This document shows, piece by piece, positions 10,888-24,865 of a DNA stretch of 64,000 nt; positions within the stretch are counted from its first letter, which is position 1; each line of letters opens with the position of its first letter. A program made the translations under genes and the position numbers. Location of the stretch: positions 902-64,901 of the forward strand of contig JBGSJA010000019.1 of NCBI GenBank assembly GCA_041742235.1. Reading direction: 5' to 3'. Source of the DNA: Salaquimonas sp. Its GTDB lineage: Bacteria; Pseudomonadota; Alphaproteobacteria; Rhizobiales; Rhizobiaceae. Under the pieces are notes generated by a model. The model was not told where the DNA came from and did no database searches. It was given only the letters and a program-made list of their open reading frames with translations.

Positions 10888-11772
10888 ATGGTCGGGACAG
10901 GTCAAGGGGCGACGCTGGGAATGTCGAACGGTGCAAGGCCGGGCGGCCAGCACTTGCGGCCAGATCCCAACAACCGCGTTCCGCTCTACCACCAGATCTT
11001 CCTCATCCTGCGCAACCGCATCTATGGCGGAACGCTGGCCCCGGGCGATATCGTCCCGGGCGAGCAGGAACTCTGCGCTGAATTTGGCGTATCGCGCATA
11101 ACCGCGAAGCGCGCGCTCAACGAAATGGCGGATGCCGGCCTGGTAGTCCGCGAGCGGGGCCGGGGAACAAGGGTGGTGAGCCGGCCGCCGCCGCCGGCCG
11201 TGACTTCATCCATCGAAGGCTGGCTGGAAAACATTTCCCTGATGGGACTGACGACCGAGGCCCGGGTGCTTGAATTCGCCTATGTCCCCGCCAGCGAGGA
11301 CATCGCCGCGGCACTGGGCACGGAGCAGGGAACACAGGTCCAGCGGGCAGTGCGGGTTCGCATGCTCGACGGGGAGCCGATGTCCTATCTCGTCACCTAT
11401 GTACCCAGCGACATCGGGCTGAGCTTTGGCCGCGAGGACCTCAACGCCAAGCCGCTGCTGCATCTGCTGGAAATGGCTGGCGTCAAGGTCGCCTCGGCGC
11501 GCCAGACGATCTCCGCCACGATTGCGGAAGCAGATGTCGCCAATGCCCTCTCCATCCATCCCGGCGCGCCGTTGATCGAGGTCCGGCGCATCGTCAGCGA
11601 CACTTCCGGCCGGCCGGTCGAATACATCCGCGTTCTATACCGGCCTGACCTTTATCGTTTCGAGATGTCCATGCGGCGCGTGCGCGGCAAGGAAGGCATG
11701 CAATGGACGGCACAGGCGTCATCTCCGGTCCCCGCCGGCGACGGCGAAGGAAAGCCACACGGGGAACGATAA
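10888..11772 (+). CDS. GntR family transcriptional regulator, HutC subfamily (UTRA effector domain)
   Basis: wHTH: PLYHQIFLILRNRIYGGTLAPGDIVPGEQELCAEFGVSRITAKRALNEMADAGLVVRERGRGTRV. The C-terminus is UTRA-like (YLVTYVPSDIG ... IEVRRIVSDTSGRPVEYIRVLYRPDLYRFEM). An alternative ATG lies at 10921. Confidence 0.8.
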   Translation: MVGTGQGATLGMSNGARPGGQHLRPDPNNRVPLYHQIFLILRNRIYGGTLAPGDIVPGEQELCAEFGVSRITAKRALNEMADAGLVVRERGRGTRVVSRPPPPAVTSSIEGWLENISLMGLTTEARVLEFAYVPASEDIAAALGTEQGTQVQRAVRVRMLDGEPMSYLVTYVPSDIGLSFGREDLNAKPLLHLLEMAGVKVASARQTISATIAEADVANALSIHPGAPLIEVRRIVSDTSGRPVEYIRVLYRPDLYRFEMSMRRVRGKEGMQWTAQASSPVPAGDGEGKPHGER

Positions 11773-11805
11773 TCAAGCCACTGACAAATCGACAGGAGGA
11801 CTAGC

Positions 11806-13050
11806 ATGGCAGACAAGTTCGCAGGAAAGGGATCAAGGGCCGTGATGCGGCGTCGCGATTTCCTGGCGGCCGGTGCAACGGCCATAGGCGTGGGCGTGAT
11901 GGGTTTTCCCGCAGTACTGAGGGCGCAGCCCGCAGCGGTAAAGATCGGCCTCATTCATCCGGTCTCCGGCTTTATCGCCTTTTCGGGCACGCAGTGCCGC
12001 GCGGGGGCCGAGATGGCCATCGCCGACATCAATGCCGCCGGCGGCATCAAGTCGATGGGCGGCGCCATGCTGGAGGCGATGCTGGCCGACAGCCAGGGCA
12101 AGCCGGATGTCGGCGCAGCCGAGGTGGGCAAGATGGTCGAGGCTGGCGCACACGGCATCGTGGCCGGTTATTCGTCAGCCATTTCGCTGGCGACATCGCA
12201 GGAAGCGGCCAAGACCAACACGCCCCATGTGGTGGATGTCGGGGTTTCCGACCAGATCGTCCAGCGCGGCCTTGCAAACACGTTCCGCTTCTCGCCGGGC
12301 TACGGCAAGACCGCAGAAATGGCGGTAACCAACCTCGACACGATCAACAAGGCAGCCGGCTCGCCCGCCAAGACCGCGATGATCATCCATGAGGAATCGC
12401 TGTTTGGCACGGGCACAGCGGAACTGTTGAACAAGAAGCTGCCGGAGATCGGCATCCAGGTCGTCGAAACCATCAAGCACGCCAATCCGACGCGCGACTT
12501 CACCAACATCGCGCTCCAGATCAAGTCGAAGAAGCCGGACCTGATCATTCCGGCCAACTACTACAACGAATATGTGCTGCTCGCCCGCACGCTGCGCCAG
12601 CAGCAGATCGAGGCGCAGGGCATCTATTCGGTGCTCGGCGGCGCGGCTTCCAGCTACCAGTTCGTCAAGGAGTTCCCGGAAGCGGCCGAACTCATCATGG
12701 ACTGCAACCACTGGTACAATCCGAAGTCGGAGCTTGCGTTGAACCGCCGCAAGGCCGCCGAGGCAAAGGGCCTTGTCTATACCTACGAAGTCTTCCTCGC
12801 CTACAATGCGGTAGCGCTGCTCGCCGACGCGATCGAACGGGCGGGATCGGTGGAAAAGGACGCGGTGAATGCCGCACTCGCCAGCTCGACCTGGGACCAG
12901 CATGGCATGCCCTACGGCCCCACCAAGATGGTGAACGGCCAGAACGAAGGCGCGCAGCCGGTCAACACGCAGGTCCAGAAGGGCGTGATCGAGGTGATCT
13001 TCCCGAAGGAATTCGCTTCCGCCGAAGCGATCTTCCCGGCGAAGATGTAG
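11806..13050 (+). CDS. ABC transporter substrate-binding protein (LivJ/K-like, Peripla_BP_6) with Tat-type signal
   Basis: The leader is MRRRDFLAAGATAIGVGVMGFPAVLRAQP. It continues with VKIGLIHPVSGFIAFSGTQCRAGAEMAIADINAAGGI, typical of branched-chain amino acid/amide binding proteins. Confidence 0.85.
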   Translation: MADKFAGKGSRAVMRRRDFLAAGATAIGVGVMGFPAVLRAQPAAVKIGLIHPVSGFIAFSGTQCRAGAEMAIADINAAGGIKSMGGAMLEAMLADSQGKPDVGAAEVGKMVEAGAHGIVAGYSSAISLATSQEAAKTNTPHVVDVGVSDQIVQRGLANTFRFSPGYGKTAEMAVTNLDTINKAAGSPAKTAMIIHEESLFGTGTAELLNKKLPEIGIQVVETIKHANPTRDFTNIALQIKSKKPDLIIPANYYNEYVLLARTLRQQQIEAQGIYSVLGGAASSYQFVKEFPEAAELIMDCNHWYNPKSELALNRRKAAEAKGLVYTYEVFLAYNAVALLADAIERAGSVEKDAVNAALASSTWDQHGMPYGPTKMVNGQNEGAQPVNTQVQKGVIEVIFPKEFASAEAIFPAKM

Positions 13051-13062
13051 TTCGCGCAACCC

Positions 13063-13113: not shown

Positions 13114-13986
13114 ATGCCCGACCTAGCGATCATCGTTCCATCCGTGCTCAACGGCCTGACGACAGGGGCGTTGTATGCGCTGATCGCGCTCGGCCTGACG
13201 CTGATCTACGGCGTGCTGCACATCATCAATTTCGCACATGGCGCATTGCTGATGCTTGGCCTTTACGCAGTGTATTTCCTAAAGGTGCGCCTCGGCATCG
13301 ACCCATACGTCTCGCTGTTGATCGTCCCGCCGGCCATGTTCGTGTTCGGCTATGCCCTGCAGCGCGGAATAATCGCGCGCGCCAGCCACGGCCGCGACGA
13401 GAACATACTCCTCGTCACGCTCGGCCTATCCATCGTGATGGAGAATCTGGCGCTGTTTTTCTTCAAGTCCGACACGCGCATTGTCGAGACGCCCTATTCC
13501 TTCGAGACGATCGAGATATTCGGGGCGTTCCTGCCGGTGCCCAAGGTCGTGGCCTTCGCAGGCGCATTGGTGACCGCGACGCTTCTTTGGCTGCTGATGA
13601 CACGTACCGACCTTGGCCGCGCCATCCGCGCACTTGCCAAGGAACGTACCGGCGCCAAGCTGGTCGGCATCGACGCCGACCACGTTTTCGGCGTCAGTTT
13701 CGGGCTGGGCATTGCCTGCCTCGGCGTTGCCGCCTGCCTGCTGCTGCCAAGCTATTACGTGAGCCCGCAAGTCGGCAGCGGCTTCGTGCTGATCGCCTTC
13801 ACCATCGTCGTACTCGGCGGCATGGGTTCCTTCGTCGGCGCCATGATCGGGGGCCTGATCATCGGCGTGGTCGAGGCGCTTGGCGGGCTCTTCCTCGGCG
13901 AGAGCCTGGGACAGATCGGCATATTCCTGATCTTCATCCTCGTCCTGATCCTGAGGCCAACCGGCCTTCTCGGCCACAAGGCTTGA
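13114..13986 (+). CDS. branched-chain amino acid-type ABC permease (LivH-like)
   Basis: LNGLTTGALYALIALGLTLIYGVLHIINFAHGALLMLGLY plus eight or so hydrophobic segments. Confidence 0.9.
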   Translation: MPDLAIIVPSVLNGLTTGALYALIALGLTLIYGVLHIINFAHGALLMLGLYAVYFLKVRLGIDPYVSLLIVPPAMFVFGYALQRGIIARASHGRDENILLVTLGLSIVMENLALFFFKSDTRIVETPYSFETIEIFGAFLPVPKVVAFAGALVTATLLWLLMTRTDLGRAIRALAKERTGAKLVGIDADHVFGVSFGLGIACLGVAACLLLPSYYVSPQVGSGFVLIAFTIVVLGGMGSFVGAMIGGLIIGVVEALGGLFLGESLGQIGIFLIFILVLILRPTGLLGHKA

Positions 13987-13990
13987 TGCA

Positions 13991-14980
13991 ATGCGCCAGC
14001 TTGCAATCCTTCTCGCCGTTTTCGGGGCAATCGCACTGGCGCCCCTGGCGCTGTCCTCCGACGCCAGCCTCAACATCGTCATCATGACACTCTACGCGGC
14101 GCTTCTGGGCCAGGCATGGAACATCCTTGGCGGCTATGGCGGGCAGGTTTCCTTCGGCCACGCCGCCTATTTCGGAACGGGGGCCTATGCGGTCGCCATT
14201 CTCCAGGTCCAGTTCGGCGTAAATCCCTGGATCGGCATGATCGCAGGCGCGCTTGCAGCAAGCGCGGTCGCTGCATTCATTGGGTTCTCGTCCTTCCGCT
14301 ATGGCCTTCGCGGTTCGTATTTCGCGCTGGTTACGCTCGCATTCGCGGAGGTGCTGCGAATCCTTTCGAACTCGGTCGGCTTTACCGGCGCGGGCGTCGG
14401 CATCCTCGTGCCGCTGGACCGCAGCGCCGTCAATTTCCAGTTCGCAGACCGCGCCGGCTTCTTCTGGGTCATCTGGACGATGTGCCTTTCCTGCTTCATC
14501 GCGGTCTGGGCGATGGCCAATTCGCGCTTTGGTGCACAGCTTACGGCGGTCCGCGACAATGAGGACGCAGCACGCGCACTTGGCGTCAACGCCTTCGCGG
14601 TAAAGATGCAAGCGATCGTACTGTCTGGCTTCTTCAGCGGATTGGCCGGTGTTTTCTACACCCAGTATTTCCTCTATCTCGATCCGCAAATCGCCTATGG
14701 CGCGGCCATTTCGGTGGAGAGCCTGCTGGTTCCGATCATCGGCGGCATGGGAACGCTGTTCGGCCCGCTGCTGGGGGCGGCGGCGTTGCACGCGCTCTCG
14801 GAAGTTACGCGCGAAATCATTGGCGACGTGCCGGGCATCAGCCTGGTCCTGTACGGCGTTCTGCTCGTGGTCATGGTGCTGTTCATGCCGCGCGGACTTG
14901 CCAGCGTTGCGCATCTGCGCCGCCGAAAGCCCGCGGCCGCCCAGCCCGCCGCCGATGCACCGGAGGCCGGGCATGCTTGA
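13991..14980 (+). CDS. branched-chain amino acid-type ABC permease (LivM-like)
   Basis: LLGQAWNILGGYGGQVSFGHAAYFGTGAYAVA. It starts 4 nt after the LivH-like stop. Confidence 0.9.
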   Translation: MRQLAILLAVFGAIALAPLALSSDASLNIVIMTLYAALLGQAWNILGGYGGQVSFGHAAYFGTGAYAVAILQVQFGVNPWIGMIAGALAASAVAAFIGFSSFRYGLRGSYFALVTLAFAEVLRILSNSVGFTGAGVGILVPLDRSAVNFQFADRAGFFWVIWTMCLSCFIAVWAMANSRFGAQLTAVRDNEDAARALGVNAFAVKMQAIVLSGFFSGLAGVFYTQYFLYLDPQIAYGAAISVESLLVPIIGGMGTLFGPLLGAAALHALSEVTREIIGDVPGISLVLYGVLLVVMVLFMPRGLASVAHLRRRKPAAAQPAADAPEAGHA

Positions 14981-15719
14981 AATCAGCGGCATCACCAAGA
15001 GTTTCGGCGGCGTGCAGGCTTCGCGCAACGTCACGATGAACGTGCCCCAAGGCGGCATCACGTCGCTGATCGGGCCGAACGGCGCCGGCAAGACGACGCT
15101 GTTCGCGCTCATTACCGGCTTCCACAGACCGGACGCAGGCTTCGTCCGGTTCCTCGGCGAAGACATTACCGGCCTTGCCCCGGAGAAGATCGCCGCGCGC
15201 GGCATGGTCCGGACTTTCCAGATCGTCCAACCCTTCGCCGGCCAGACGGTCCGCGAAAACATCGCCGTCGGAGCGCATCTGCGCCTTCGCCGGCGCGCCG
15301 ATGCACTCGAAAAAGCCGAGATGGTCGCCCGCCAGGTCGGCCTGGCGGAACGGCTGGACAGCGACGCGGCGGCGCTTACCGTCGCGGGTCGCAAGCGCCT
15401 CGAAGTTGCCCGCGCGCTTGCCACGGACCCGAAGCTGATCCTGTTCGACGAGGTGTTGGCCGGCCTCAACCCGTCGGAAATACGCGACGTCATTCCGGTC
15501 ATCCGCGCCGTCGCCGAAACCGGCGTGACCATCCTGCTCATCGAGCATGTCATGCAGGCGGTCATGAGCCTGTCGAGCCATGCCTGGGTGCTGAACCAGG
15601 GCGAGATCATCGCGCAGGGCCCTCCCCGCGAAATCGTGGCGAACCCCGCCGTTGTCGAGGCCTATCTCGGCAAGGGCATGGCGGAGCGAATGGCGAGGCG
15701 GGAGGCTAGTCATGCTTGA
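14973..15719 (+). CDS. ABC transporter ATP-binding protein (LivG-like)
   Basis: ATG at 14973 with GGAGG 7 nt upstream; it overlaps the permease stop. Motifs: MLEISGITKSFGGVQA, Walker A GPNGAGKTT, and the LivG-type C-terminal NPAVVEAYLG. Confidence 0.9.
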   Translation: MLEISGITKSFGGVQASRNVTMNVPQGGITSLIGPNGAGKTTLFALITGFHRPDAGFVRFLGEDITGLAPEKIAARGMVRTFQIVQPFAGQTVRENIAVGAHLRLRRRADALEKAEMVARQVGLAERLDSDAAALTVAGRKRLEVARALATDPKLILFDEVLAGLNPSEIRDVIPVIRAVAETGVTILLIEHVMQAVMSLSSHAWVLNQGEIIAQGPPREIVANPAVVEAYLGKGMAERMARREASHA

Positions 15720-16431
15720 GGCCGCCATGCTTGAGGTCAGCGGATTGCGCGGCGGTTACGGCCCGGTCGAGATCCTGCGCGGCATCGACATCGAAATTAG
15801 CCGCGGGGACATTGTCGCCCTGCTCGGCTCCAATGGCGTTGGCAAGACCACCTTCGCCACCATCGTGTCCGGGCTCCGGCGTCCATGGGGCGGAACGGTG
15901 CGGTTCCAGAGCCGCGACATCACACGCCTGCCGGCGCAGGCGATTGTCGACAGCGGCCTCATCCAGGTTCCGGAGGGACGGCACATCTTCCCGAATCTCA
16001 GCGTCCGCGAAAATCTCCTGCTCGGAGCGTACCGGCGCGGGCGGGCCAACCGGTCCGCCAACCTTGAGCGCATCACAGATATCTTTCCGCGCCTTCGCGA
16101 ACGCTTCGAACAAAGGGCCGGAACCCTTTCGGGCGGCGAGCAACAGATGCTCGCAATCGGACGCGGCATGATGGCCGAGCCTGAAATCCTCATCCTCGAC
16201 GAGCCGTCAATCGGCCTGTCGCCGCTGCTGGTCGAGGAAATGTTCGCGCTCATCAAACGGCTGAACGAAGAGGGGCTGACGATCCTTCTTGTCGAGCAGA
16301 ACGTGCTGCAATCGCTGGAAATCGCGACCCGCGCCTTTGTCATGGAAAATGGCGAGATCAGGCTCTCGGGACGCCCGTCCGAAATGATGGACGATCCCGA
16401 ACTCCAGCGCTCCTATCTGGGGCTCGCGTGA
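15712..16431 (+). CDS. ABC transporter ATP-binding protein (LivF-like)
   Basis: ATG at 15712 overlaps the LivG-like stop. Motifs: [44 protein letters not shown] and the tail SYLG. Confidence 0.9.
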   Translation: MLEAAMLEVSGLRGGYGPVEILRGIDIEISRGDIVALLGSNGVGKTTFATIVSGLRRPWGGTVRFQSRDITRLPAQAIVDSGLIQVPEGRHIFPNLSVRENLLLGAYRRGRANRSANLERITDIFPRLRERFEQRAGTLSGGEQQMLAIGRGMMAEPEILILDEPSIGLSPLLVEEMFALIKRLNEEGLTILLVEQNVLQSLEIATRAFVMENGEIRLSGRPSEMMDDPELQRSYLGLA

Positions 16432-17705
16432 TGGCCTCGACCCTTGCGGAAAAGATCATCGCACGCGCCGCCGGCCGCGATGAAGTGCGGCCGGGCGAAG
16501 TGGTCACGGTCAAGGTGGACCTCGCCATGATCCACGATTCGGGCGGCCCGCGCCGGGTGGAGCCGATACTGCGGGAGCTTGGCGCTCCCCTGTTCGATTC
16601 CTCGAGGGTGGTGTTGATCTCCGATCATTTCGTGCCGGGAGACACCGATGAGGGCGCACGGATCCTCGAAATGACGCGGGCCTGGGCAAAGGAGCGCAAG
16701 GTCGCTTTCCATGACGGCGAAGGCATCTGCCACGTCGTGCTGCCGGAACGCGGGCATCTGAGACCCGGCATGATGGTCGTCGGCGGGGACAGCCATTCGC
16801 CGACGGGGGGCGCATTTGGAGCCTACATGTTCGGCATTGGCGCAACGGAAATGGCGGGTGTTCTGGCCACCGGCGAGATCTGGCTGAAGGTGCCCGATAC
16901 CATTCTGATCGAATGGACCAACACGCTATCGCCGGGCGTGGTCGCCAAGGACATGATGCTGGCATTGTGCGGGCGGCTGGGAATGGATGGCGGCCGCTAC
17001 CAGGCCGTCGAGTATTCGGGTACGGCGGTCAGCGCCCTTTCCATGCAGGAGCGCATGACGCTTTCCAACATGGCCGCCGAACTGGGCGCGCAGGCGGGAC
17101 TGATAGCGCCCGACGAAACCACGCAGCGATGGCTTGAGAGCATCGGCGGCGGTGCCGGCGAGTGGCGCGGTCTCGCAACCGATCCCGGCGCCAGGCTCGG
17201 CGCGCACCATGTGTTCGATGCGGCACTACTGGAGCCGCAGGTGGCAGCGCCCCACTCGCCCGCCAATGCCGCCTCTGTCGGACAGGCAGCTGCAACGCCG
17301 GTGGATATCGCCTATATCGGCGCCTGCACGGGGGCGAAATACGAGGACCTGAAGGCGGCAGCCGGCATTCTAGCGGGCCGGAAACTTGCAGGTGGCGTGG
17401 AACTTCTCGTTGCCCCGGCGAGCCGGCGAGACCAGGACCGTGCCGAGGCTGAAGGCATCATGCGGGTGTTCGAGGATGCCGGAGCGCGCATCCTGCCCAA
17501 TGCCTGCGGCATCTGCGCCGGCTATGGCAGCGACAGGCTTGGCGAGAACGTCACTTGCATCTCCTCCACCGCGCGCAACTTCAAGGGCCGCATGGGCGCA
17601 GCGAGCTCGAAGGTATGGCTCGCCTCCCCGCTCACGGTCGCTGCTTCCGCTATCGCCGGGCACATCGCCGATCCGCGTGAATTCCTTGCGGAGGCCAGTT
17701 CATGA
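16431..17705 (+). CDS. aconitase-superfamily hydro-lyase large subunit (LeuC/HacA-like, short form)
   Basis: MASTLAEKIIARAAGRDEVRPGEVVTVKVDLAMIHDSGG, GGDSHSPTGGAFGA, IGACTGAKYEDL and PNACGICAGYG (Fe-S cysteine ligands). TGATG overlap with the preceding gene. Confidence 0.8.
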   Translation: MASTLAEKIIARAAGRDEVRPGEVVTVKVDLAMIHDSGGPRRVEPILRELGAPLFDSSRVVLISDHFVPGDTDEGARILEMTRAWAKERKVAFHDGEGICHVVLPERGHLRPGMMVVGGDSHSPTGGAFGAYMFGIGATEMAGVLATGEIWLKVPDTILIEWTNTLSPGVVAKDMMLALCGRLGMDGGRYQAVEYSGTAVSALSMQERMTLSNMAAELGAQAGLIAPDETTQRWLESIGGGAGEWRGLATDPGARLGAHHVFDAALLEPQVAAPHSPANAASVGQAAATPVDIAYIGACTGAKYEDLKAAAGILAGRKLAGGVELLVAPASRRDQDRAEAEGIMRVFEDAGARILPNACGICAGYGSDRLGENVTCISSTARNFKGRMGAASSKVWLASPLTVAASAIAGHIADPREFLAEASS

Positions 17706-19068: not shown

Positions 19069-20798
19069 TGACGCTCGATCCGGTCACGCTGGCAATCATG
19101 AAGGGCCGTCTGGAGCAAATCGCAGACGAAATGGACGCGACCCTCTTCCGCTCGGCCTTCAACCCGATCATTGCCGAGGCGCACGACGCTTCGCACGGCA
19201 TTTACGAAGCCGGTACCGGCGACACGCTGGTGCAGGGCAAGTCGGGATTGCCGATCTTTGTTGGCGTGATGGCGTTTGCGGTGAAAGCCGTCATCGACAA
19301 GGCGGCGAGACAAGGTGGCATCAACGAAGGCGACGTGTGGATCTTCAACGATCCATACGACGGCGGCACGCACCTTTCGGATTTCCGTTTGGTGAAGCCG
19401 GTATTCGTTGACGGCGCGGTTTTCTGCTTCCTGGCGTCGGTCGGCCACTGGCACGATGTTGGCGGCAATGTGCCAGGAAACTATAATCCCGTCGCGCGGG
19501 AGTGTTTTCAGGAAGGAATGCTCATCCCGCCGGTCAAGCTCTACGACAAGGGCGAGTTCCGGCAGGACATAGTCGACATCCTTTCGGCCAATTCGCGGCT
19601 GCCGCTTTCGCTCTACGGCGACCTCAATGGCCAGATCAACGCGCTGGAACTGGGCGAGCGGCGCATGCATGCGCTGATCGCCGAATACGGCGCCGCCACG
19701 GTCGCGGCGTGCCTTGCAGAACTCAAATCGCGTGCGGCCCAAATGATGCGCGCCCAGATCGCGCGCCTGCCGCCGGGCACAGTCTCGGCCGAGGATTTTC
19801 TCGACAATGACGGCATTGTCGACCAACCCCTGAAGATCGCGCTGGACCTGACGATCGACAACGGCCGCATGGTGATCGACTTCACCCGCTCCTCGCCCGC
19901 TTGCGCCGGGCCGGTGAACATCTCGCGCGCCACCACCATTGCCGCCTGCTATGTGGCGCTGAAGCACATATTCGGCGAGGTGCCGGCCAATGCCGGGGTG
20001 CTGGAGCCGGTGGAGTTCAAGATCGCGGAAGATTCGCTGCTTTCGGTGCGCGCGCCCAAGCCCGTCGGCGGCTATACCGAAACCATTCTCCGATTGATCG
20101 ACGTGATCTTCCAGGCGATGGCTAAGATCGCGCCGCAGGAGGCGATGGCCTGCGCCTACGGCACGATCAACGCGCTTTCCCTGGCCGGCTACCGGGCAAA
20201 CGGCCAGCGCTGGGTGATGTTTTCCTTCTTCGGAGGCGGCCATGGCGGCCATGCCAATGGCGACGGGCTGAACCACGGAAATGCGCCGATCTCGACTGCC
20301 ACCATACCACCTCTCGAAATCCTGGAAGCTGCCTATCCGGTGCGCTTCACACAATGGGCGCTGCGCCCCGATTCCGGCGGTGCGGGCAGGCATCGCGGCG
20401 GCCTTGGCGCAATCTACGAGATCGAGTTGCTGGAAAAGGAGGCGGACGTCTTCCTGTTTGGCGAACGCGGGCGATTTGCCCCGCCCGGAATCCTTGGCGG
20501 GCTTTGCGCAGCGGCTAACCGCTTCACCTATCAGCAGGCGGATGGCGGGCATGAGCCGCCAATGGCGTCCAAGATGGTCGGCATCCATATCGAACGCGGC
20601 CAGCGGCTGCGCCTCGAAACGCCCGGCGGCGGCGGATATGGCGATCCGCTGGAGCGTGACCCGCAGCAGGTCCGGCGCGACGTGATGCTGGGTCTCGTCT
20701 CGCCGGCGAAAGCGTTGGAGGACTATGGCGTGGCGGTTTCGGGAAGCGGCGCGCTGGATGAGGCGGCGACCAGGGCAAAGCGGGGGCAGACAGCGTGA
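19068..20798 (+). CDS. hyuB: hydantoinase B/oxoprolinase family protein
   Basis: MTLDPVTLAIMKGRLEQIADEMDATLFRSAFNPIIAEAHDASHGIY, NDPYDGGTHLSDF and GGGGYGDPLERDPQQVRRDV. Confidence 0.85.
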   Translation: MTLDPVTLAIMKGRLEQIADEMDATLFRSAFNPIIAEAHDASHGIYEAGTGDTLVQGKSGLPIFVGVMAFAVKAVIDKAARQGGINEGDVWIFNDPYDGGTHLSDFRLVKPVFVDGAVFCFLASVGHWHDVGGNVPGNYNPVARECFQEGMLIPPVKLYDKGEFRQDIVDILSANSRLPLSLYGDLNGQINALELGERRMHALIAEYGAATVAACLAELKSRAAQMMRAQIARLPPGTVSAEDFLDNDGIVDQPLKIALDLTIDNGRMVIDFTRSSPACAGPVNISRATTIAACYVALKHIFGEVPANAGVLEPVEFKIAEDSLLSVRAPKPVGGYTETILRLIDVIFQAMAKIAPQEAMACAYGTINALSLAGYRANGQRWVMFSFFGGGHGGHANGDGLNHGNAPISTATIPPLEILEAAYPVRFTQWALRPDSGGAGRHRGGLGAIYEIELLEKEADVFLFGERGRFAPPGILGGLCAAANRFTYQQADGGHEPPMASKMVGIHIERGQRLRLETPGGGGYGDPLERDPQQVRRDVMLGLVSPAKALEDYGVAVSGSGALDEAATRAKRGQTA

Positions 20799-22864
20799 CG
20801 AAACCAGCCTATGCCATCGGCGTCGATGTCGGCGGAACCTTCACGGACGTCTTCATACTGGACGAGGCCACGGGGACGATCGCCACTGCCAAAGTGCCCT
20901 CGACACGTGGCGACCAGTCCAGGGGGTTCGTCGAAGGTATCTCGGGAAGTGTCGCTGACTTTGGCGACATTCGTACCGTGGTTCACGGTACGACGGTTGG
21001 AACGAACGCCCTGCTTGAACGCAAGGGCGCGCGCACCGGCATCATCACCACCGAAGGTTTCCGCGATGTTCTGGAGATGCGCCGCCGCGACAGGCCGACG
21101 ACATGGGGACTGAAAGGCTCTTTCACGCCGGTGGTTGACCGCCGTGACCGCGTCGAGGTTAGCGAGCGCGTCCTTGCCGACGGAACGGTGATGGAGGCGG
21201 TCGATCTCGACGCCGTGCGCAGCCGCGCCAGGGCATTGCTTGAAAGCGGCTGCCAGTCCGCCTGCGTCTTCTTCATCAACGGCTATGCCAATTCGGCAAA
21301 CGAGGCGCTGGCGGTCGAGGCAGTCCGCTCGGTCTGGCCGAACCCCTACGTCACCGCCGCGACGGAGATCCTGCCGGAAATCCGCGAATTCGAACGGCTC
21401 TCCACCGCGACGCTGAACGCCTATCTCCAGCCGGTCGTCTCCTCCTATCTGGAAAGGCTGGAGAGGAGCCTTGCCGACCGCGGTTTCAAAGGCGACATCC
21501 TCATCGTCCAGTCGAATGGCGGCGTGATGTCCGTCGATACTGCCAAGCGTTATCCGGTGCGCACGGCGCTTTCTGGCCCCGCGGCAGGCGTGATCGCCGC
21601 GACCGCGATTGCGCAGGCGGCGGGATTCGCCAACATCATCACCTGCGACATGGGCGGAACCTCCTTCGACGTTTCACTGGTTGCGGGCGGCCAGGCGGCG
21701 CTGGCGGCGCAAACCTCGATCGATTTCGGACTTGTTGTGCGCACGCCGATGATCGAGATCACGACGATCGGCGCCGGCGGCGGCTCGATAGCGTGGGTCG
21801 ACAGCAGCGGCCTGCTGCAGGTGGGGCCCGAATCGGCCGGGTCCGACCCTGGCCCGGCCTGCTATGGCCTTGGCAACGCCCGGCCAACGGTTACCGACGC
21901 GAATGTCGTTCTCGGCCGCATCAATGCCGAACGGCCGATCGGCGGCAAGCTGGCGCGCCTCGATGTCCAAGCGGCAAGGGCTGCGATCGAGGCCGAGATC
22001 GCCTCTCCGCTCGGTCTGGGCATCGAGGATGCAGCCGAAGCGATCTTGAAGCTCGCGACGGCCAAGATGGCCGGCGCCATCCGCCTTGTCTCGATTGAAA
22101 AGGGACACGATCCGGCAAGGTTCGCAGCGATGCCTTTTGGCGGCGGCGGCGGGCTGCATACCGGCGCTTTGATCAAGGAGGTCGGCCTGGGTTCGGCGCT
22201 GGTGCCCCGGTTTCCCGGCGTCACCTCCGCGCTCGGCTGCGTGGTGGCAGACATGCGGCATGACCGTGTGCAGACGGTGAACCGCCTGCTTGACCAGATC
22301 GATGCGGCGGCGCTGGGAGAGGAAATGGCTGCGGTTGCGCGCAATACCTCAAAATTGCTGGCCGAATCCGGCGTTGCATTCGAACGCATCGACGAGCTCT
22401 ACGAATTCGACATGCTTTATGTCGGCCAGACCCACACGGTGACGGTGAAAGTGGAAATGCCGCAAGGCGGCCTCACACGCGAGGCTATCGCAGCGCGCTT
22501 CGACGCCGCCTATCTTGAAGCTTACGGGCGGCTTCTGGAGAACATACCGCGACGCGTGATGAACTACCGCATCGCCGTGATCGGCAGGCGGCGCAAACTC
22601 GACATGACCGTGTTCGCCCCGGTGGATGGCAGGCCGGCACGCGATTGCCTGATCGGGACGCGGCGCATATTCGCCGATGGCCGGTTCATGGATGCCGGCG
22701 TCTACGAACGTCTGGCGCTGGAGAGCGGCGCGCAGATCGAAGGCCCTGCCCTGCTGGAACAGCCCGACACGACAATCTTCGTCGATCCCGGCCTCGTTGC
22801 GCGGGTTGATGCGTTCGGAAACCTCGTCATCCGTTCTGCCGGAGGCGCCAGTGGAGGCAAGTGA
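20795..22864 (+). CDS. hyuA: hydantoinase/oxoprolinase family protein (A subunit)
   Basis: YAIGVDVGGTFTDVFILDE, HGTTVGTNALLERKGARTGIITTEGFRDVLEMRR and TCDMGGTSFDVSL. GTGA overlap with hyuB. Confidence 0.85.
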   Translation: MTKPAYAIGVDVGGTFTDVFILDEATGTIATAKVPSTRGDQSRGFVEGISGSVADFGDIRTVVHGTTVGTNALLERKGARTGIITTEGFRDVLEMRRRDRPTTWGLKGSFTPVVDRRDRVEVSERVLADGTVMEAVDLDAVRSRARALLESGCQSACVFFINGYANSANEALAVEAVRSVWPNPYVTAATEILPEIREFERLSTATLNAYLQPVVSSYLERLERSLADRGFKGDILIVQSNGGVMSVDTAKRYPVRTALSGPAAGVIAATAIAQAAGFANIITCDMGGTSFDVSLVAGGQAALAAQTSIDFGLVVRTPMIEITTIGAGGGSIAWVDSSGLLQVGPESAGSDPGPACYGLGNARPTVTDANVVLGRINAERPIGGKLARLDVQAARAAIEAEIASPLGLGIEDAAEAILKLATAKMAGAIRLVSIEKGHDPARFAAMPFGGGGGLHTGALIKEVGLGSALVPRFPGVTSALGCVVADMRHDRVQTVNRLLDQIDAAALGEEMAAVARNTSKLLAESGVAFERIDELYEFDMLYVGQTHTVTVKVEMPQGGLTREAIAARFDAAYLEAYGRLLENIPRRVMNYRIAVIGRRRKLDMTVFAPVDGRPARDCLIGTRRIFADGRFMDAGVYERLALESGAQIEGPALLEQPDTTIFVDPGLVARVDAFGNLVIRSAGGASGGK

Positions 22865-23465
22865 ATTCAATCCGCGCCGCACCGCGCTCGTCATCATCGA
22901 CTTGCAGAACGACTTCCTCCACCCGGATGGCGCCTACGCCCGTGGCGGCCAGGCGAATGAAGACATCGCGGCCTTGCCCGCGCGCGTCCTGCCGGTGGCG
23001 AAAGCGGTCCGGGCAGCCGGCGGGGCAGTCGTGTCAACGCTGTTCACGCTGGTGCCTGGCCGCGACGGCGAGCCGATGATCTCACCGCACCTGCGAAAGC
23101 TGCGCCCCTTCCTGCGCAAGGGCGATTTTACGCCGGGAGGCTGGGGCCATGCGCTCGTGGACGAGTTGCAGCCGGCGGACTTCACCGTCGAGAAGGTGGC
23201 CTATTCGGCTTTCTACATGACGCGCCTTGAATGGGTGCTGCGCAAGGCGGGCATCGACACGCTGCTTGTCTGCGGGATCGTGACGAACGGCGGCGTCGCC
23301 TCAACGGTCCGCGATGCGCATGTGCGCGACTTCAAGGTTACCGTCCTGTCGGACGGTTGCGCGGCGTTTTCCAGCGAGGTGCATTTGCGCGCCATCGGCG
23401 ACCTCTCGACCGTGGCGCAAACCATCCCCTGCGCAGGCGCGCTCGAGATGTTCGAGGGTTCGTGA
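22851..23465 (+). CDS. isochorismatase-family cysteine hydrolase
   Basis: I call the GTG at 22851 as start (GGAGG 5 nt upstream; it overlaps the hyuA stop). Motifs: RTALVIIDLQNDFLHPDGAY (Asp), EKVAYSAF (Lys region) and CGIVTNGGVASTVRDA. The nucleophile position reads TNGGV, so the Cys is not obvious from the sequence. Confidence 0.7.
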   Translation: MEASEFNPRRTALVIIDLQNDFLHPDGAYARGGQANEDIAALPARVLPVAKAVRAAGGAVVSTLFTLVPGRDGEPMISPHLRKLRPFLRKGDFTPGGWGHALVDELQPADFTVEKVAYSAFYMTRLEWVLRKAGIDTLLVCGIVTNGGVASTVRDAHVRDFKVTVLSDGCAAFSSEVHLRAIGDLSTVAQTIPCAGALEMFEGS

Positions 23466-24865
23466 TGGGACGTGTGTTGCGGCAGGCCGCGCCGAGGGTC
23501 GATGCTGCCGCGGATGTGGTGGTCATTGGCGCCGGCGCTTGCGGCCTGGTCGCGGCGTTGCGCGCCAAGGCGAACGGCGCAGAGGTCATCGTGCTCGAAC
23601 GGGACGCCTCGCCTTCGGGTTCCACCTCGATGTCTTCCGGCTTTGTTCCCGCTCCCGGAACGCTCGCCCAGGCGAAAGCCGGAATAGCGGACGACAGTCC
23701 ACACATTTTCCTCGCCGACATTCTTGCCAAGTCGAAAGGGAAATCGGATCCGTTCCTCGCTGATCTTGCAAGCCGCACCATCGGTCCCGCGGTCGACTGG
23801 CTGGCCCGCCACTGCGGCATCGAGTGGATAGTGCTGGACGATTTTCTCTATCCCGGCCATTCGCGCTACCGCATGCATGCGGTGCATGAAAAAACCGGAG
23901 CGGCGTTGCACGCGAAACTGCTTGCAGCAGCGCAGGCGGCAGACATTCCCGTCGTCACCGAAGCGCGCGCAGAGCGGCTTTTCATTGACGGCGAAGACCG
24001 GATCGGCGCCGTGGAAATCGTAAGGCCGGGCGGCATCGAGTTCATCGGCTGTGGCAGCCTCGTCCTTTCCTGCAACGGTTATGGCGGGAATCGCGAACTG
24101 GTGCGGCGCTACATTCCCGAGATCGCGGAAGGTTTGTACTACGGCCATGCGGGCAATACCGGCGACGCCGTGCAATGGGGCGGGGAACTTGGCGCGCAAT
24201 TGCGTCATCTGTCCGGCTATCAGGGCCACGGATCGCTCGCCCATCCGCACGGCATCCTGATCAGCTGGGCCTTGATGACGCGCGGCGGAATGCAGGTCAA
24301 TGTCGAGGGCAGGCGCTTTTCCGATGAAAGCGGCGGGTATTCCGAGCAGGCGGTAAAGGTCCTTGCCCAGCCGCAGAAAATTGCCTGGAACATCTACGGC
24401 GATGCGATCCACCAATTCGCCCTGTCCTTTCCCGATTACCGCGACGCGCTCGCCGCGGGAGCGGTGCGCACCGCGCCCGATCTCGCCTCGCTGTGTGCAG
24501 CGACCGGGCTGCCGGCGGACGGGCTTGCCCAAACGCTCGATGAAACCGCGCGGCTGCGGGCAGGCGTAGGCGCGGATTCCTTTGGCCGCGATTTCACAAA
24601 CCTCCCGCCACTGACGCCGCCCTATTGTGCGGTCAAGGTGACCGGAGCGCTGTTTCACACGCAAGGCGGTCTCGTGATCGATGAACACGCGCGTGTCGTC
24701 CGGCGGGACGGCACTGCTTTCCCCAATCTTCACGCGGCGGGCGGCGCGGCCTGCGGCGTTTCAGGTCCCGATGTAAGCGGCTACCTCTCCGGCAATGGCC
24801 TGCTTACGGCAATCGCATTCGGCTACATTGCCGGCTGCAACGCCGCTTCCCCTGCAAGGGATTGA
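23465..24865 (+). CDS. FAD-dependent oxidoreductase (FAD_binding_2, fumarate reductase/KstD-like flavoprotein)
   Basis: ATG at 23465 overlaps the preceding TGA. Motifs: ADVVVIGAGACGLVAALRAKANGAEVIVLERD (GxGxxG), GALFHTQGGLVIDEHARV and PNLHAAGGAACGVSG. Confidence 0.8.
   Translation: MGRVLRQAAPRVDAAADVVVIGAGACGLVAALRAKANGAEVIVLERDASPSGSTSMSSGFVPAPGTLAQAKAGIADDSPHIFLADILAKSKGKSDPFLADLASRTIGPAVDWLARHCGIEWIVLDDFLYPGHSRYRMHAVHEKTGAALHAKLLAAAQAADIPVVTEARAERLFIDGEDRIGAVEIVRPGGIEFIGCGSLVLSCNGYGGNRELVRRYIPEIAEGLYYGHAGNTGDAVQWGGELGAQLRHLSGYQGHGSLAHPHGILISWALMTRGGMQVNVEGRRFSDESGGYSEQAVKVLAQPQKIAWNIYGDAIHQFALSFPDYRDALAAGAVRTAPDLASLCAATGLPADGLAQTLDETARLRAGVGADSFGRDFTNLPPLTPPYCAVKVTGALFHTQGGLVIDEHARVVRRDGTAFPNLHAAGGAACGVSGPDVSGYLSGNGLLTAIAFGYIAGCNAASPARD

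What the first reader, a model, noticed from the sequence alone, without database searches (positions are those of the whole stretch)
10888..24865. GntR-headed operon with 12 structural genes couples a Liv-type importer to LeuCD-like dehydratase, PrpB-like lyase, HyuB/HyuA, a cysteine hydrolase and a flavoprotein
Seen:
- After the binding-protein gene and its hairpin, every junction from 13991 to 24865 is a 1-14 nt stop/start overlap (ATGA, GTGA, TGATG), or a 4-nt gap in one case. This indicates one translationally coupled unit.

Known:
- An ATP-dependent hydantoinase/oxoprolinase pair followed by an isochorismatase-family amidase is the enzyme logic of N-methylhydantoin to N-carbamoylsarcosine to sarcosine.
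- An aconitase-type hydro-lyase plus an isocitrate-lyase/PEP-mutase-superfamily lyase is the logic of methylcitrate-type C-C cleavage.

Inference:
- The proposed route imports a cyclic amide or ureide with a carboxyalkyl side chain. The ring is opened with ATP, the product is deamidated, oxidised by the FAD enzyme, then isomerised and cleaved to central metabolites.
- I do not know a characterised pathway with this combination.
- The hydrolase here reads TNGGV where the two paralogues further right have T[DE]VCV, so its nucleophile may differ.
Basis: partly seen in the sequence, partly recalled or inferred. Interest (0 to 1): 0.65.

Follow-up and report, generated by a model that had tools for sequence, protein, structure and literature searches.

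The report
Conserved operon for an unknown cyclic amide
This is a real, widely conserved but uncharacterised bacterial operon that most likely imports a small ring-shaped amide carrying an acid group, opens the ring with ATP and then cuts the carbon skeleton into central metabolites; its substrate is still unknown.

Summary
A GntR/HutC gene is followed by 12 genes with the stated junctions: overlaps of 1-14 nt and one 4-nt gap.

The set is not a chance neighbourhood. In 54 species-level genomes with enough flank, the PrpB-like lyase lies with HyuB, HyuA and the isochorismatase-like gene in 52. A LeuCD-like or PrpD-like hydro-lyase is present in 53 and the flavoprotein in 46. Gene order and transporter type vary. 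A divergent Pro-1 tautomerase-SnoaL gene and a conserved operator also belong to the unit.

Three results sharpen the interpretation:
- The binding protein's closest solved relative binds L-pyroglutamate.
- The "cysteine hydrolase" has Gly at the nucleophile position in all 73 orthologues, with Asp and Lys kept as in true isochorismatases. It is unlikely to be a thiol amidase.
- The flavoprotein has Tyr at both catalytic or binding Arg positions of fumarate reductase.

Best model: a carboxylated five-membered lactam or imide is desaturated, opened with ATP and stripped of nitrogen. The resulting cis-alkene acid is hydrated and cleaved. I found no published assignment. The substrate and the order of steps are inferred.

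The parts
10213..10779 (-). Divergent gene: N-terminal Pro-1 tautomerase (4-OT fold) fused to a SnoaL/NTF2-like domain, 188 aa. The true start is ATG 10779, preceded by GGAGG.
   Evidence: Pfam Tautomerase + SnoaL_2. The PDB 9mua/9mup 'Tautomerase' chain starts at Pro1 and aligns with residues 29-211 of the long ORF, E=7e-59. Sequence read. Found next to the cluster in 26 of 54 genomes.
10833..10862 (+). Promoter-like site (TTGACA, 16 nt, TACCAT) overlapped by an inverted repeat, TAATGATAT-N6-ATACCATTA (10839-10862). Putative GntR/HutC operator.
   Evidence: Promoter scan. The same roughly 30-nt element is conserved in the tautomerase-GntR intergenic region of L001, L007, L008, L009, L013, L015, L017, L035, L053 and L058.
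10888..11772 (+). GntR-family regulator of the HutC type (winged HTH + UTRA effector domain). The start is 10888, or more likely 10921 (283 aa, as in P. gilvum).
   Evidence: PF00392 + PF07702. Orthologue lengths.
11806..13050 (+). Periplasmic solute-binding protein of the Liv type (Peripla_BP_6), in a long (about 415 aa) subfamily.
   Evidence: Pfam. The closest solved structure is 8WCH, which is SAR11_0655 with L-pyroglutamate: E=1e-31 and 27% identity over 367 aa, including the C-terminal extension that LivJ/LivK lack (PMC11485210).
13063..13087 (+). G+C-rich hairpin (10 pairs) with a T-rich tail between the SBP gene and livH. Likely a partial terminator or stabiliser that raises SBP expression over the rest of the operon.
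   Evidence: In the Stappia orthologue the depth of RNA contigs over the SBP gene is about 2-3 times that downstream (this is a weak measure).
13114..13986 (+). ABC permease, LivH-like.
   Evidence: The orthologue in L001 (85% identity) carries PF02653.
13991..14980 (+). ABC permease, LivM-like.
14973..15719 (+). ABC ATPase, LivG-like.
15712..16431 (+). ABC ATPase, LivF-like.
16428..17705 (+). Large subunit of an aconitase-family [4Fe-4S] hydro-lyase (archaeal LeuC/HacA type).
   Evidence: PF00330. NF001614 scores 506.5 (cut-off 385) and TIGR01343 hacA_fam scores 428.1 (cut-off 385.7). Cys300, Cys360, Cys363 and the GGDSH motif are invariant.
17702..18205 (+). Small subunit (LeuD/DmdB family). 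Its substrate loop reads YMKGG, with a basic residue where homoaconitase has Arg.
   Evidence: TIGR02087 scores 189.9 (cut-off 108.95). The best solved match is the MJ1271 homoaconitase small subunit (2pkp), whose loop YLRT aligns with YMKG. YM[K/R]GG is the usual form in orthologues.
18202..19068 (+). C-C lyase of the isocitrate lyase/PEP mutase superfamily (like PrpB or 2,3-dimethylmalate lyase).
   Evidence: PF13714. TIGR02317 prpB scores 285.9, below its cut-off of 354.4. PDB matches: methylisocitrate lyases at about 1e-54, petal death protein at 1e-47, dimethylmalate lyase at 4.5e-47. PKRCGH, Arg, Glu and Asn are invariant in 84 sequences.
19068..20798 (+). HyuB-type subunit (the metal-containing hydrolysis site) of an ATP-dependent lactamase/hydantoinase.
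   Evidence: PF02538, E=1e-170. Its best NCBIfam match is CapB at 327 bits, below the cut-off of 1000. The Asp40-His102-Asp105-His127 tetrad is conserved, matching Asp41/His99/Asp102/His124 of CapB (PMC8453981).
20795..22864 (+). HyuA-type subunit (ATP-binding, ASKHA fold).
   Evidence: PF05378 + PF01968 + PF19278. CapA scores 519.6 bits, below the cut-off of 1000. The DVGGTFTD and DMGGTSFD motifs are conserved.
22851..23465 (+). Isochorismatase-fold protein with Asp and Lys kept but Gly at the Cys nucleophile position (GIVTNGGVAST).
   Evidence: PF00857. TNGGV aligns with TNCCV of 3kl2 and TEVCV of 6xix. The motif is invariant in 73 orthologues, and DLQNDF and EKVAYSAF are conserved. Directly contiguous with HyuB-HyuA in 48 of the 54 genomes.
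23462..24865 (+). Soluble FAD protein of the fumarate reductase / urocanate reductase / KstD superfamily, with no cytochrome domain and a Tyr/Tyr/Trp active-site variant.
   Evidence: PF00890. TIGR01813 scores 206 (cut-off 285). Against Fcc3: His365 and His504 are kept, Arg402 becomes Tyr293, Arg545 becomes Tyr441, Glu378 becomes Trp269 and Arg381 becomes Met. Tyr293, Tyr441 and Trp269 are unchanged in every orthologue that has a residue at those columns (59, 57 and 59 of 59; the other 2 at Tyr441 are alignment gaps).

Best explanation
This is a substrate-inducible catabolic operon for a small cyclic amide that carries a carboxylate. The substrate is most likely a five-membered lactam or imide resembling pyroglutamate or succinimide, with a branched or extra-carboxylated carbon skeleton.

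Proposed steps, with their basis:
1. The HutC-type GntR repressor sits on the inverted repeat that overlaps the promoter and is released by the substrate or an intermediate. (Inferred from a conserved operator.)
2. The Liv-type ABC system imports the compound. (Homology. Its closest solved relative binds L-pyroglutamate.)
3. HyuA phosphorylates the lactim tautomer with ATP, and HyuB hydrolyses the activated ring at its metal site. (By homology with caprolactamase and 5-oxoprolinase; catalytic residues are present.)
4. The flavoprotein introduces or removes a C=C next to a carbonyl. Its Tyr-rich, Arg-less site suggests it acts on the neutral ring, as KstD does, which would fix a cis double bond. 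(Inferred.)
5. The Cys-less isochorismatase-fold enzyme, tightly coupled to HyuBA, releases the nitrogen without a thiol. This could be vinylogous (enamine or enol-ether type) hydrolysis as in true isochorismatases, or substrate-assisted breakdown of a maleamate-type amide. The Pro-1 tautomerase-SnoaL protein shifts a double bond or an enamine/imine. (Inferred.)
6. The resulting cis-alkene di- or tricarboxylate (aconitate-, homoaconitate- or dialkylmaleate-like) is hydrated by the LeuCD-like Fe-S enzyme. The PrpB-like lyase then cleaves it to glyoxylate or pyruvate plus succinate, glutarate or a related acid. (Catalytic motifs are shown; the substrates are inferred.)
For: Gene map and coupling. 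Domains.

Conservation:
- The identical 13-gene order plus the divergent tautomerase occurs in P. gilvum and M. koreense.
- Among 54 species genomes, HyuB/HyuA/IsoC lie with PrpB in 52, LeuC-like or PrpD-like in 53, and the flavoprotein in 46, in at least 4 different gene orders.
- An Azospirillum lipoferum megaplasmid has the same set.

Substrate class:
- The importer is swapped for TRAP, TTT or NMT1-type systems in other genomes. TRAP and TTT are known carriers of carboxylates (my knowledge), so the substrate is probably an organic anion.
- The SBP's closest solved relative, 8WCH, is an L-pyroglutamate binder with Kd < 5 nM.
- Accessory genes point to ring amides and maleate-type intermediates: a cyclic amidohydrolase of the allantoinase/dihydropyrimidinase type, Asp/Glu/hydantoin-racemase-superfamily genes, and a second, canonical Cys hydrolase.

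Catalytic competence:
- HyuB metal tetrad and HyuA ATP motifs (PMC8453981).
- LeuC cysteines.
- A basic residue in the LeuD loop, as in homoaconitase.
- The lyase KRCGH motif.

Expression and regulation:
- RNA-derived contigs bridge all junctions in a Stappia orthologue.
- A conserved operator overlaps the promoter.
Against: - No substrate has been shown. All chemistry after import is inferred from family membership.
- SBP identity to 8WCH is only 27%, so ligand transfer is weak.
- HyuAB relatives also include carboxylases.
- The isochorismatase-like protein has no precedent as a Cys-less amidase. It could be a non-catalytic partner of HyuAB.
- Eight of 54 genomes lack the FAD_binding_2 flavoprotein nearby. 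Loci L020 and L027 of this kind carry a GMC oxidoreductase plus a CMD-family gene instead. The redox step may therefore not be a C-C desaturation.
- The tautomerase gene is found near the cluster in only 26 of 54 genomes.
- ATP-dependent opening of an imide would be unusual. The known cyclic imidases I am aware of need no ATP (my knowledge).
- The metatranscriptome evidence comes from contigs, which carry no strand information and may include DNA.
Confidence: 0.5

Rival explanations
1. Hydantoin/ureide route. The substrate is a 5-substituted hydantoin with a carboxyalkyl chain, for example hydantoin-5-propionate or 5-carboxymethylhydantoin. HyuAB opens it to an N-carbamoyl amino acid, the isochorismatase-like enzyme decarbamoylates it, and the remaining enzymes degrade an unusual amino acid.
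For: - The HyuA/HyuB Pfam families include N-methylhydantoinase.
- The HyuAB plus isochorismatase-family pairing is the N-methylhydantoin / N-carbamoylsarcosine logic (established knowledge).
- Some variant loci carry Asp/Glu/hydantoin-racemase-family genes and an allantoinase/ErtD-like cyclic amidohydrolase.
Against: - The Cys nucleophile of N-carbamoylsarcosine amidase-type enzymes is replaced by Gly in all 73 orthologues.
- There are no amino-acid oxidase, transaminase or sarcosine oxidase genes.
- The racemase-like genes match no curated hydantoin racemase model.
- The SBP's closest solved relative binds a lactam, not a ureide.
Confidence: 0.12
2. Carboxylase reading. HyuAB is an ATP-dependent carboxylase or enol-phosphorylating enzyme, as for acetone or acetophenone, acting on a keto acid. 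The product then enters a methylcitrate-like isomerase/lyase sequence. No nitrogen is involved.
For: - HyuA and HyuB also match acetophenone carboxylase subunits.
- The metal tetrad is shared by carboxylases and lactamases.
- TRAP and TTT transporters in variant loci fit plain organic acids.
- The isochorismatase-like protein lacks an amidase nucleophile.
Against: - Scores are far higher to caprolactamase models than to carboxylase models: 520 against 283 bits and 327 against 126 bits.
- No gamma or epsilon subunit genes were found in any of about 80 loci.
- The SBP relative binds a lactam.
- Variant loci add cyclic amidohydrolases and a canonical Cys amidase.
Confidence: 0.1
3. Plain L-pyroglutamate (5-oxoproline) utilisation. 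The ABC system and HyuAB make glutamate, and the other enzymes serve another, merely co-located function.
For: SAR11_0655 (8WCH) binds L-pyroglutamate and sits next to a 5-oxoprolinase. Eukaryotic 5-oxoprolinase is a HyuA-HyuB fusion.
Against: - The lyase, hydro-lyase and isochorismatase-like genes travel with hyuBA in 52-53 of 54 genomes through several rearrangements and transporter swaps. That is not expected for a chance neighbour.
- Glutamate needs none of these enzymes.
- SBP identity to 8WCH is only 27%.
Confidence: 0.06
4. Methylcitrate-cycle or propionate-detoxification operon that happens to contain HyuAB.
For: The best NCBIfam hit of the lyase is PrpB. PrpD-family genes occur in 12 of the 54 genomes counted.
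Against: - The PrpB score of 285.9 is below its cut-off of 354.4.
- There is no methylcitrate synthase (PrpC) or propionyl-CoA synthetase in the window cluster or in the variant loci examined.
- The PrpD-like proteins score only 41 bits against PrpD models.
- The hydro-lyase is of the LeuCD/HacAB type, not AcnB or AcnD.
Confidence: 0.04
5. Two unrelated operons (transport, and enzymes) joined by chance.
For: The transporter type is exchangeable between genomes. A weak internal promoter-like site lies at 19459-19487.
Against: - Start/stop overlaps run across the transporter-enzyme boundary.
- The same order occurs in many genera.
- RNA contigs cross the LivF/LeuC junction in a Stappia orthologue.
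- Internal promoter-like hits are only slightly above the shuffle expectation (6 found against 2.5 +/- 1.8).
Confidence: 0.03

Closest known systems
Creatinine / N-methylhydantoin pathway (ATP-dependent N-methylhydantoinase HyuAB followed by N-carbamoylsarcosine amidase)
   Same: A two-subunit ATP-dependent ring-opening enzyme is immediately followed by an isochorismatase-fold protein.
   Different: - The isochorismatase-fold protein has Gly in place of the catalytic Cys.
- There are no creatinine deaminase or sarcosine oxidase genes.
- A hydro-lyase, a C-C lyase, a flavoprotein and a tautomerase are present in addition.
Caprolactamase CapAB and 5-oxoprolinase (ATP-dependent lactam hydrolases)
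   Same: Best curated matches for both subunits. The metal tetrad and ATP motifs are conserved.
   Different: Scores are far below the equivalog cut-offs (520 and 327 bits against 1000). The genomic partners are different. The SBP relative suggests a carboxylated five-membered ring rather than caprolactam.
Last steps of nicotinate fermentation in Eubacterium barkeri: dimethylmaleate hydratase DmdAB plus 2,3-dimethylmalate lyase. Also TcuA plus aconitase plus isocitrate lyase for tricarballylate, and the methylcitrate cycle (PrpD/Acn/PrpB).
   Same: A LeuCD-type Fe-S hydratase (LeuD/DmdB family, TIGR02087) is paired with an ICL/PEP-mutase-family lyase that keeps the KRCGH catalytic loop. A fumarate-reductase-family flavoprotein also weakly matches TcuA.
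   Different: - There are no upstream enzymes of those pathways (B12 mutase, methylcitrate synthase).
- The lyase and flavoprotein are below all equivalog cut-offs.
- The flavoprotein lacks the two Arg residues.
- The hydratase/lyase pair is fused to an ATP-dependent ring-opening module.
SAR11_0655 L-pyroglutamate ABC transporter with pxpABC 5-oxoprolinase (PMC11485210)
   Same: A Liv-type SBP of the same long subfamily, lacking the LivJ Glu that binds the alpha-ammonium group, linked to an ATP-dependent lactam-opening enzyme.
   Different: Only 27% identity. The ring-opening enzyme here is HyuAB, not PxpABC. Six further enzymes are present.
True isochorismatases (PhzD, EntB) and maleamate amidohydrolase NicF
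   Same: Same fold. The Asp and Lys of the catalytic set are kept. The absence of Cys is the state I recall for PhzD and EntB (my knowledge). NicF (3ot4/3uao) and PhzD are among the PDB matches.
   Different: No chorismate-pathway context. Sequence is closer to cysteine hydrolases (3kl2, RutB, biuret hydrolase) than to PhzD or EntB. Its reaction is unknown.

Membership tests
N-carbamoylsarcosine amidase / cysteine hydrolase branch of the isochorismatase superfamily | Isochorismatase fold (PF00857) | tested here: met
   E=2.1e-41, 142 bits against a cut-off of 27.
N-carbamoylsarcosine amidase / cysteine hydrolase branch of the isochorismatase superfamily | Catalytic triad Asp-Lys-Cys with Cys as the nucleophile | tested here: not met
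   Asp and Lys are present. The Cys position is Gly (TNGGV against TNCCV and TEVCV) in the window and in all 73 orthologues.
ATP-dependent hydantoinase/oxoprolinase/caprolactamase (HyuAB) | HyuA (PF05378/PF01968/PF19278) and HyuB (PF02538) domains encoded as adjacent genes | tested here: met
   The genes overlap by 4 nt.
ATP-dependent hydantoinase/oxoprolinase/caprolactamase (HyuAB) | Metal-binding Asp-His-Asp-His tetrad in HyuB and ATP-binding Asp/Thr motifs in HyuA | tested here: met
   D40, H102, D105 and H127, plus DVGGTFTD and DMGGTSFD, are conserved in 74-75 sequences. Reference residues come from PMC8453981.
Caprolactamase CapA/CapB (equivalog) | Score above the NCBIfam equivalog cut-off | tested here: not met
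   519.6 and 327.3 bits against a cut-off of 1000.
Methylisocitrate lyase PrpB | Score above the TIGR02317 or NF008455 cut-off | tested here: not met
   285.9 against 354.4, and 243.6 against 353.
ICL/PEP-mutase superfamily C-C lyases | Gating-loop K-[RK]-C-G-H with the catalytic Cys, plus the Mg-binding Asp/Glu set | tested here: met
   PKRCGH is invariant in 84 sequences. The equivalents of D58, D85, D87, E115, R158, E188, N210 and R241 align with E. coli PrpB. T212 is Val, and R270 is not matched.
LeuCD / HacAB / DmdAB aconitase-family hydro-lyases | Subfamily models above cut-off, and three Cys ligands of the [4Fe-4S] cluster | tested here: met
   NF001614 506.5 > 385, TIGR01343 428.1 > 385.7, TIGR02087 189.9 > 108.95. 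C300, C360 and C363 are invariant.
3-isopropylmalate dehydratase or homoaconitase (equivalogs) | Score above the equivalog cut-offs | tested here: not met
   LEU2 342 < 610, HacA_Meth 372 < 550, leud 150 < 246, HacB 166 < 230.
Soluble fumarate reductase / flavocytochrome c flavoprotein | Catalytic Arg402, substrate-binding Arg545 and the Glu378/Arg381 proton relay (Shewanella Fcc3 numbering, from memory; checked against the R402 mutant chain) | tested here: not met
   The four positions are Tyr, Tyr, Trp and Met. His365 and His504 are kept. TIGR01813 scores 206, below 285.
Tautomerase superfamily (4-OT type) | N-terminal Pro-1 after Met removal, and the beta-alpha-beta fold | tested here: met
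   MPIVRV at the RBS-preceded start. The 9mua chain begins with the aligned Pro1. PF01361 scores 22.4 against a cut-off of 22, which is borderline.
GntR family, HutC subfamily | GntR winged HTH plus a UTRA effector domain | tested here: met
   PF00392 at 2.1e-19 and PF07702 at 3.9e-36. No equivalog cut-off was reached.

The most novel reading that the evidence does not exclude
The operon may encode a previously undescribed pathway for carboxyalkyl-substituted succinimides or maleimides, or closely related pyrrolinone lactams. Examples are (dihydro)hematinic acid and its relatives, which form when chlorophylls, bilins and haem are oxidised.

The proposed route is:
1. A KstD-like flavoprotein makes the maleimide.
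2. HyuAB opens the ring at the cost of ATP, because dialkyl-substituted rings strongly favour closure.
3. The Cys-less isochorismatase-fold enzyme promotes substrate-assisted loss of ammonia from the dialkylmaleamate.
4. Methyl-cis-(homo)aconitate is hydrated by the homoaconitase-like enzyme.
5. The product is split to pyruvate plus glutarate or succinate.

This would fit the occurrence of the operon in phototrophic mats, alga-associated and soil Alphaproteobacteria. The chemistry is my own inference. Nothing here tests it directly.
Probability: 0.1. Interest if true: 0.8.

Novelty: new variant of a known kind. Interest (0 to 1): 0.55.

Why it matters
The gene set is present in many genera, mostly marine, soil, sludge and hot-spring Alphaproteobacteria: Roseibium, Stappia, Hoeflea, Mesorhizobium, Bosea, Azospirillum, many Paracoccaceae, and also a Hydrogenophaga and a Granulosicoccus. 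It is transcribed in estuarine metatranscriptomes. None of its enzymes reaches a curated equivalog threshold, and no paper I could search assigns it a substrate.

Solving it would do three things:
- Identify a probably common environmental N-heterocyclic acid and its route into central metabolism.
- Define the chemistry of a conserved Cys-less isochorismatase-fold enzyme and of a Tyr-substituted fumarate-reductase-family flavoprotein.
- Give a function to the crystallised but unpublished tautomerase-SnoaL fusion (PDB 9mua/9mup).

Tried and rejected
- Literature. All ten full-text searches found no assignment of the cluster. Only 8WCH led to a useful paper.
- TRAP SBP ligand. I tried to read the Vetting et al. 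TRAP-SBP paper to get the ligand of 4MNC, the closest structure to the TRAP SBP of variant loci (E=2.4e-50). It is not held.
- RNA evidence for the window itself. Only hot-spring and biofilm DNA metagenomes hold it. The P. gilvum locus could not be submitted. I used a Stappia indica orthologue instead.
- DNA search against plasmids. It gave only weak partial matches. The Azospirillum lipoferum record has no annotation, so I mapped the genes myself.
- Direct creatinine-pathway and methylcitrate-cycle memberships: considered and rejected (see the membership tests).
- Canonical fumarate reductase or TcuA function for the flavoprotein: considered and rejected, because both Arg residues are missing.
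- Structure prediction and fold search: not run. The fold of every protein is already clear from sequence, and pocket-level comparison is not returned by the tools.

Full report
**Observation**

The region was re-read with the ORF lister and a script that lists candidate starts. A GntR-family gene (10888 or 10921-11772) is followed by a solute-binding-protein gene (11806-13050, RBS AGGAGG). After that comes a 10-pair G+C-rich hairpin with a T-rich tail (13063-13087) and then eleven more genes up to 24865.

There is a 4-nt gap between livH and livM. The other junctions overlap by 8, 8, 4 (or 1), 4, 4, 1, 4, 14 and 4 (or 1) nt. Pfam and NCBIfam confirm every family assignment. The TNGGV motif, and the TDVCV and TEVCV motifs of two paralogues at 46406-46963 and 48645-49181, are also confirmed. 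The window comes from a hot-spring/biofilm metagenome.

**The unit is larger than reported**

Upstream, on the minus strand, lies a gene for a tautomerase fused to a SnoaL/NTF2-like domain. Its real start is the ATG at 10779, preceded by GGAGG. This gives the N-terminal Pro-1 typical of the tautomerase superfamily. An unpublished crystal structure labelled only "Tautomerase" (9mua/9mup) begins at exactly that Pro and matches at E=7e-59.

The 108-nt intergenic region holds a promoter-like TTGACA-16-TACCAT site. It is overlapped by the inverted repeat TAATGATAT-N6-ATACCATTA (10839-10862). The same element is conserved in the corresponding region of at least ten orthologous loci. This is what one expects of a HutC-type operator.

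**Is it one functional unit?**

The lyase protein has hundreds of relatives at about 80% identity. In Polymorphum gilvum and Mesorhizobium koreense the whole 13-gene array plus the divergent tautomerase is present in the same order, with unrelated flanks.

A scan of one genome per species returned 80 loci at 63-81% identity. I mapped the 14 window proteins onto them. Among the 54 loci with at least 8 kb on both sides of the lyase gene:

| Gene near the lyase | Loci (of 54) |
|---|---|
| HyuB, HyuA and the isochorismatase-like gene | 52 (contiguous in 48) |
| LeuC-like gene | 49 |
| LeuC-like or MmgE/PrpD-family gene | 53 |
| Flavoprotein | 46 |
| GntR gene | 45 |
| Liv-type ABC system | 30 |
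| Tautomerase | 26 |

At least four gene orders occur. The same set also lies on an Azospirillum lipoferum megaplasmid.

In estuarine metatranscriptomes, contigs from a close relative of Stappia indica bridge every gene junction of the orthologous cluster. Depth is higher over the SBP gene. This is supportive but not strand-specific, and DNA carry-over cannot be excluded. Internal promoter-like matches are barely above the shuffle expectation. The "two unrelated operons" reading is therefore very unlikely.

**What the variable parts say**

Where the Liv system is missing, TRAP (DctPQM), TTT (TctC) or NMT1-type binding proteins take its place. TRAP and TTT systems are known to carry carboxylates (my knowledge), so the substrate is very probably an organic anion.

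Other accessory genes are:
- an allantoinase/dihydropyrimidinase-like cyclic amidohydrolase;
- Asp/Glu/hydantoin-racemase-superfamily genes, a superfamily that also holds maleate isomerase and arylmalonate decarboxylase;
- a 2-oxoglutarate oxygenase;
- a second isochorismatase-family gene with the canonical Cys (GISTNMCVETT);
- a GMC oxidoreductase plus a CMD-family gene, in loci L020 and L027, which lack the FAD_binding_2 flavoprotein.

In the four loci without a LeuCD-like gene, a PrpD-family gene sits next to the lyase. This fits a hydration/dehydration step on a citrate- or aconitate-like acid just before the lyase.

**The binding protein**

Its closest solved relative by a wide margin is 8WCH (E=1e-31; the next is 3e-20). 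8WCH is SAR11_0655 crystallised with L-pyroglutamate. It binds that ligand with Kd < 5 nM and was described as a new class of ABC transporter next to a 5-oxoprolinase (PMC11485210).

Identity is only 27% over 367 residues. The alignment nevertheless runs through the C-terminal extension that LivJ/LivK-type proteins lack. Both proteins also lack the acidic residue that, as I recall, binds the alpha-ammonium group in LivJ. This is a lead towards a carboxylated lactam, not proof.

**The enzymes**

*HyuB and HyuA.* HyuB keeps the Asp-His-Asp-His metal tetrad and HyuA keeps the ATP-binding motifs. The reference residues and the phospho-lactim mechanism are described for caprolactamase (PMC8453981). 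The best curated matches are CapA and CapB, far below the equivalog cut-offs and well above the carboxylase models.

*The isochorismatase-fold protein.* It keeps Asp (DLQNDF) and Lys (EKVAYSAF) but has Gly where cysteine hydrolases have the nucleophile. GIVTNGGV is invariant in 73 orthologues. This is a conserved state, not decay. As I recall, true isochorismatases, which hydrolyse a vinyl ether by acid catalysis, have the same state. A thiol-acyl amidase mechanism is excluded.

*The flavoprotein.* It belongs to the fumarate reductase / urocanate reductase / KstD superfamily. It has Tyr at both the catalytic Arg402 position and the carboxylate-binding Arg545 position of Shewanella Fcc3. It has Trp and Met at the proton-relay positions. 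The two His residues are kept. Tyr293, Tyr441 and Trp269 do not vary in any of the 59 orthologues. It is not a canonical succinate/fumarate-type enzyme. A Tyr-based site recalls ketosteroid dehydrogenases, which desaturate a ring next to a carbonyl (my knowledge).

*The LeuCD-like enzyme.* It passes the subfamily models for archaeal-type LeuC/HacA and LeuD/DmdB but no equivalog, and it keeps the three cluster cysteines. Its small subunit is closest to the Methanocaldococcus homoaconitase subunit. A Lys or Arg sits where that enzyme has the Arg of its YLRT loop, and where isopropylmalate isomerases have hydrophobic residues. This suggests a substrate with a distal carboxylate.

*The lyase.* It keeps the KRCGH catalytic loop and the Mg and substrate ligands of E. 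coli PrpB. The exceptions are Thr212 (Val here) and the C-terminal Arg270. It scores below the PrpB cut-off and is about equally close to methylisocitrate lyases, the petal death protein and 2,3-dimethylmalate lyase.

**Most likely mechanism**

Putting this together, I think the operon catabolises a small carboxylated cyclic amide, most likely a five-membered lactam or imide.

Supported by homology and conservation:
- import by a Liv-type, TRAP or TTT system;
- ATP-dependent ring opening by a catalytically intact HyuAB;
- a terminal hydration by an Fe-S hydro-lyase, followed by C-C cleavage by a PrpB-like lyase. The products would be glyoxylate or pyruvate plus a dicarboxylate.

Inferred:
- The flavoprotein desaturates (or reduces) the ring rather than an open-chain diacid, which would fix the cis geometry that aconitase-type hydratases need.
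- The Cys-less isochorismatase-fold protein, genetically locked to HyuBA, releases the nitrogen. This could be enamine or vinyl-type hydrolysis, or substrate-assisted collapse of a maleamate-type amide.
- The Pro-1 tautomerase-SnoaL protein moves a double bond or interconverts an enamine and an imine.

I put about 0.5 on this overall scheme. I do not commit to a named substrate.

**Rivals**

- A 5-substituted hydantoin route is weakened by the missing Cys and by the absence of any amino-acid-oxidising enzyme.
- A carboxylase function of HyuAB cannot be excluded. It is disfavoured by the model scores, by the absence of gamma or epsilon subunits in about 80 loci, and by the SBP lead.
- Plain pyroglutamate utilisation does not explain the co-inherited enzymes.
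- A methylcitrate cycle lacks its synthase and fails the equivalog tests.

**Comparison with known systems and novelty**

The cluster works like a splice of two known logics. One is an ATP-dependent lactam/hydantoin opener followed by an isochorismatase-fold enzyme, as in creatinine catabolism. The other is an Fe-S hydratase plus an ICL-family lyase, as in the end of nicotinate fermentation, tricarballylate use or the methylcitrate cycle. It is a member of none of these pathways: in each case a defining feature was tested and not met.

Ten full-text searches found no paper that assigns this gene combination. I rate it a new variant of a known kind of system, namely a catabolic operon built from known families. 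It has two distinctive enzyme subfamilies and an unknown, probably environmentally common, substrate.

The most novel reading that remains open is catabolism of tetrapyrrole-derived carboxyalkyl imides such as hematinic acid. That reading would account neatly for the ATP use, the Cys-less hydrolase, the homoaconitase-like hydratase and the habitats. It rests only on chemical reasoning (probability about 0.1).

Noticed in passing
window 46406-46963 and 48645-49181 (+): Two canonical isochorismatase-family cysteine hydrolases (ITTDVCV and VTTEVCV), 26-30% identical to the operon's Cys-less protein. They resemble the biuret/triuret-hydrolase-like 'cysteine hydrolase' structures and probably belong to another nitrogen-compound cluster.
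   Followed up: partly
window 10213-10779 (-) and PDB 9mua/9mup: A crystal structure of a close homologue of the tautomerase-SnoaL fusion exists (186 aa, E=7e-59), but I could find no publication. Its genomic partner genes, this operon, may give it a biological context.
   Followed up: partly
window 19459-19501 (inside hyuB): A short A+T-richer patch with a promoter-like TTGGCG-17-TATAAT and a small palindrome (TCCCGTCGCGCGGGA) that scores as terminator-like on both strands. It lies inside a coding region of otherwise 62-65% G+C, and its significance is unknown.
   Followed up: no
window 24958-25266 (-), 25922-27448 (-), 27905-30235 (-), 9401-10111 (+): The flanks are unrelated to the operon: an HdeA/HdeB-family gene, a long ORF with SRPBCC (polyketide cyclase-like) and zinc alcohol dehydrogenase domains (possibly two genes read as one from an upstream start), a flotillin/SPFH protein, and a DUF1513 protein. 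They mark the borders of the unit.
   Followed up: partly
L044 (WNWL01000002.1, labelled Oceanobacillus sp. HTM 045): A record labelled as a Firmicute carries the complete alphaproteobacterial-type cluster at 55-75% protein identity on an 807-kb contig. This may be a mislabelled or contaminated assembly, or a transfer.
   Followed up: no
L036, L037, L039, L054, L060, L067 (GntR-tautomerase intergenic regions): The second cluster architecture has a different conserved palindrome (ACCTGTAT...ATACAGGT) in place of the TAATGGTAT...ATACCATTA operator. The regulator and its operator appear to have co-diverged.
   Followed up: no
L074 2-1039: An IS110-family transposase lies directly beside the cluster in a Neomegalonema MAG. 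This hints at mobility of the module.
   Followed up: no
L015 1500-17200, runs X5-X8: Estuary metatranscriptomes contain contigs 95-99% identical to the Stappia indica cluster across all genes, so the operon is expressed, or at least present, in natural estuarine communities.
   Followed up: partly
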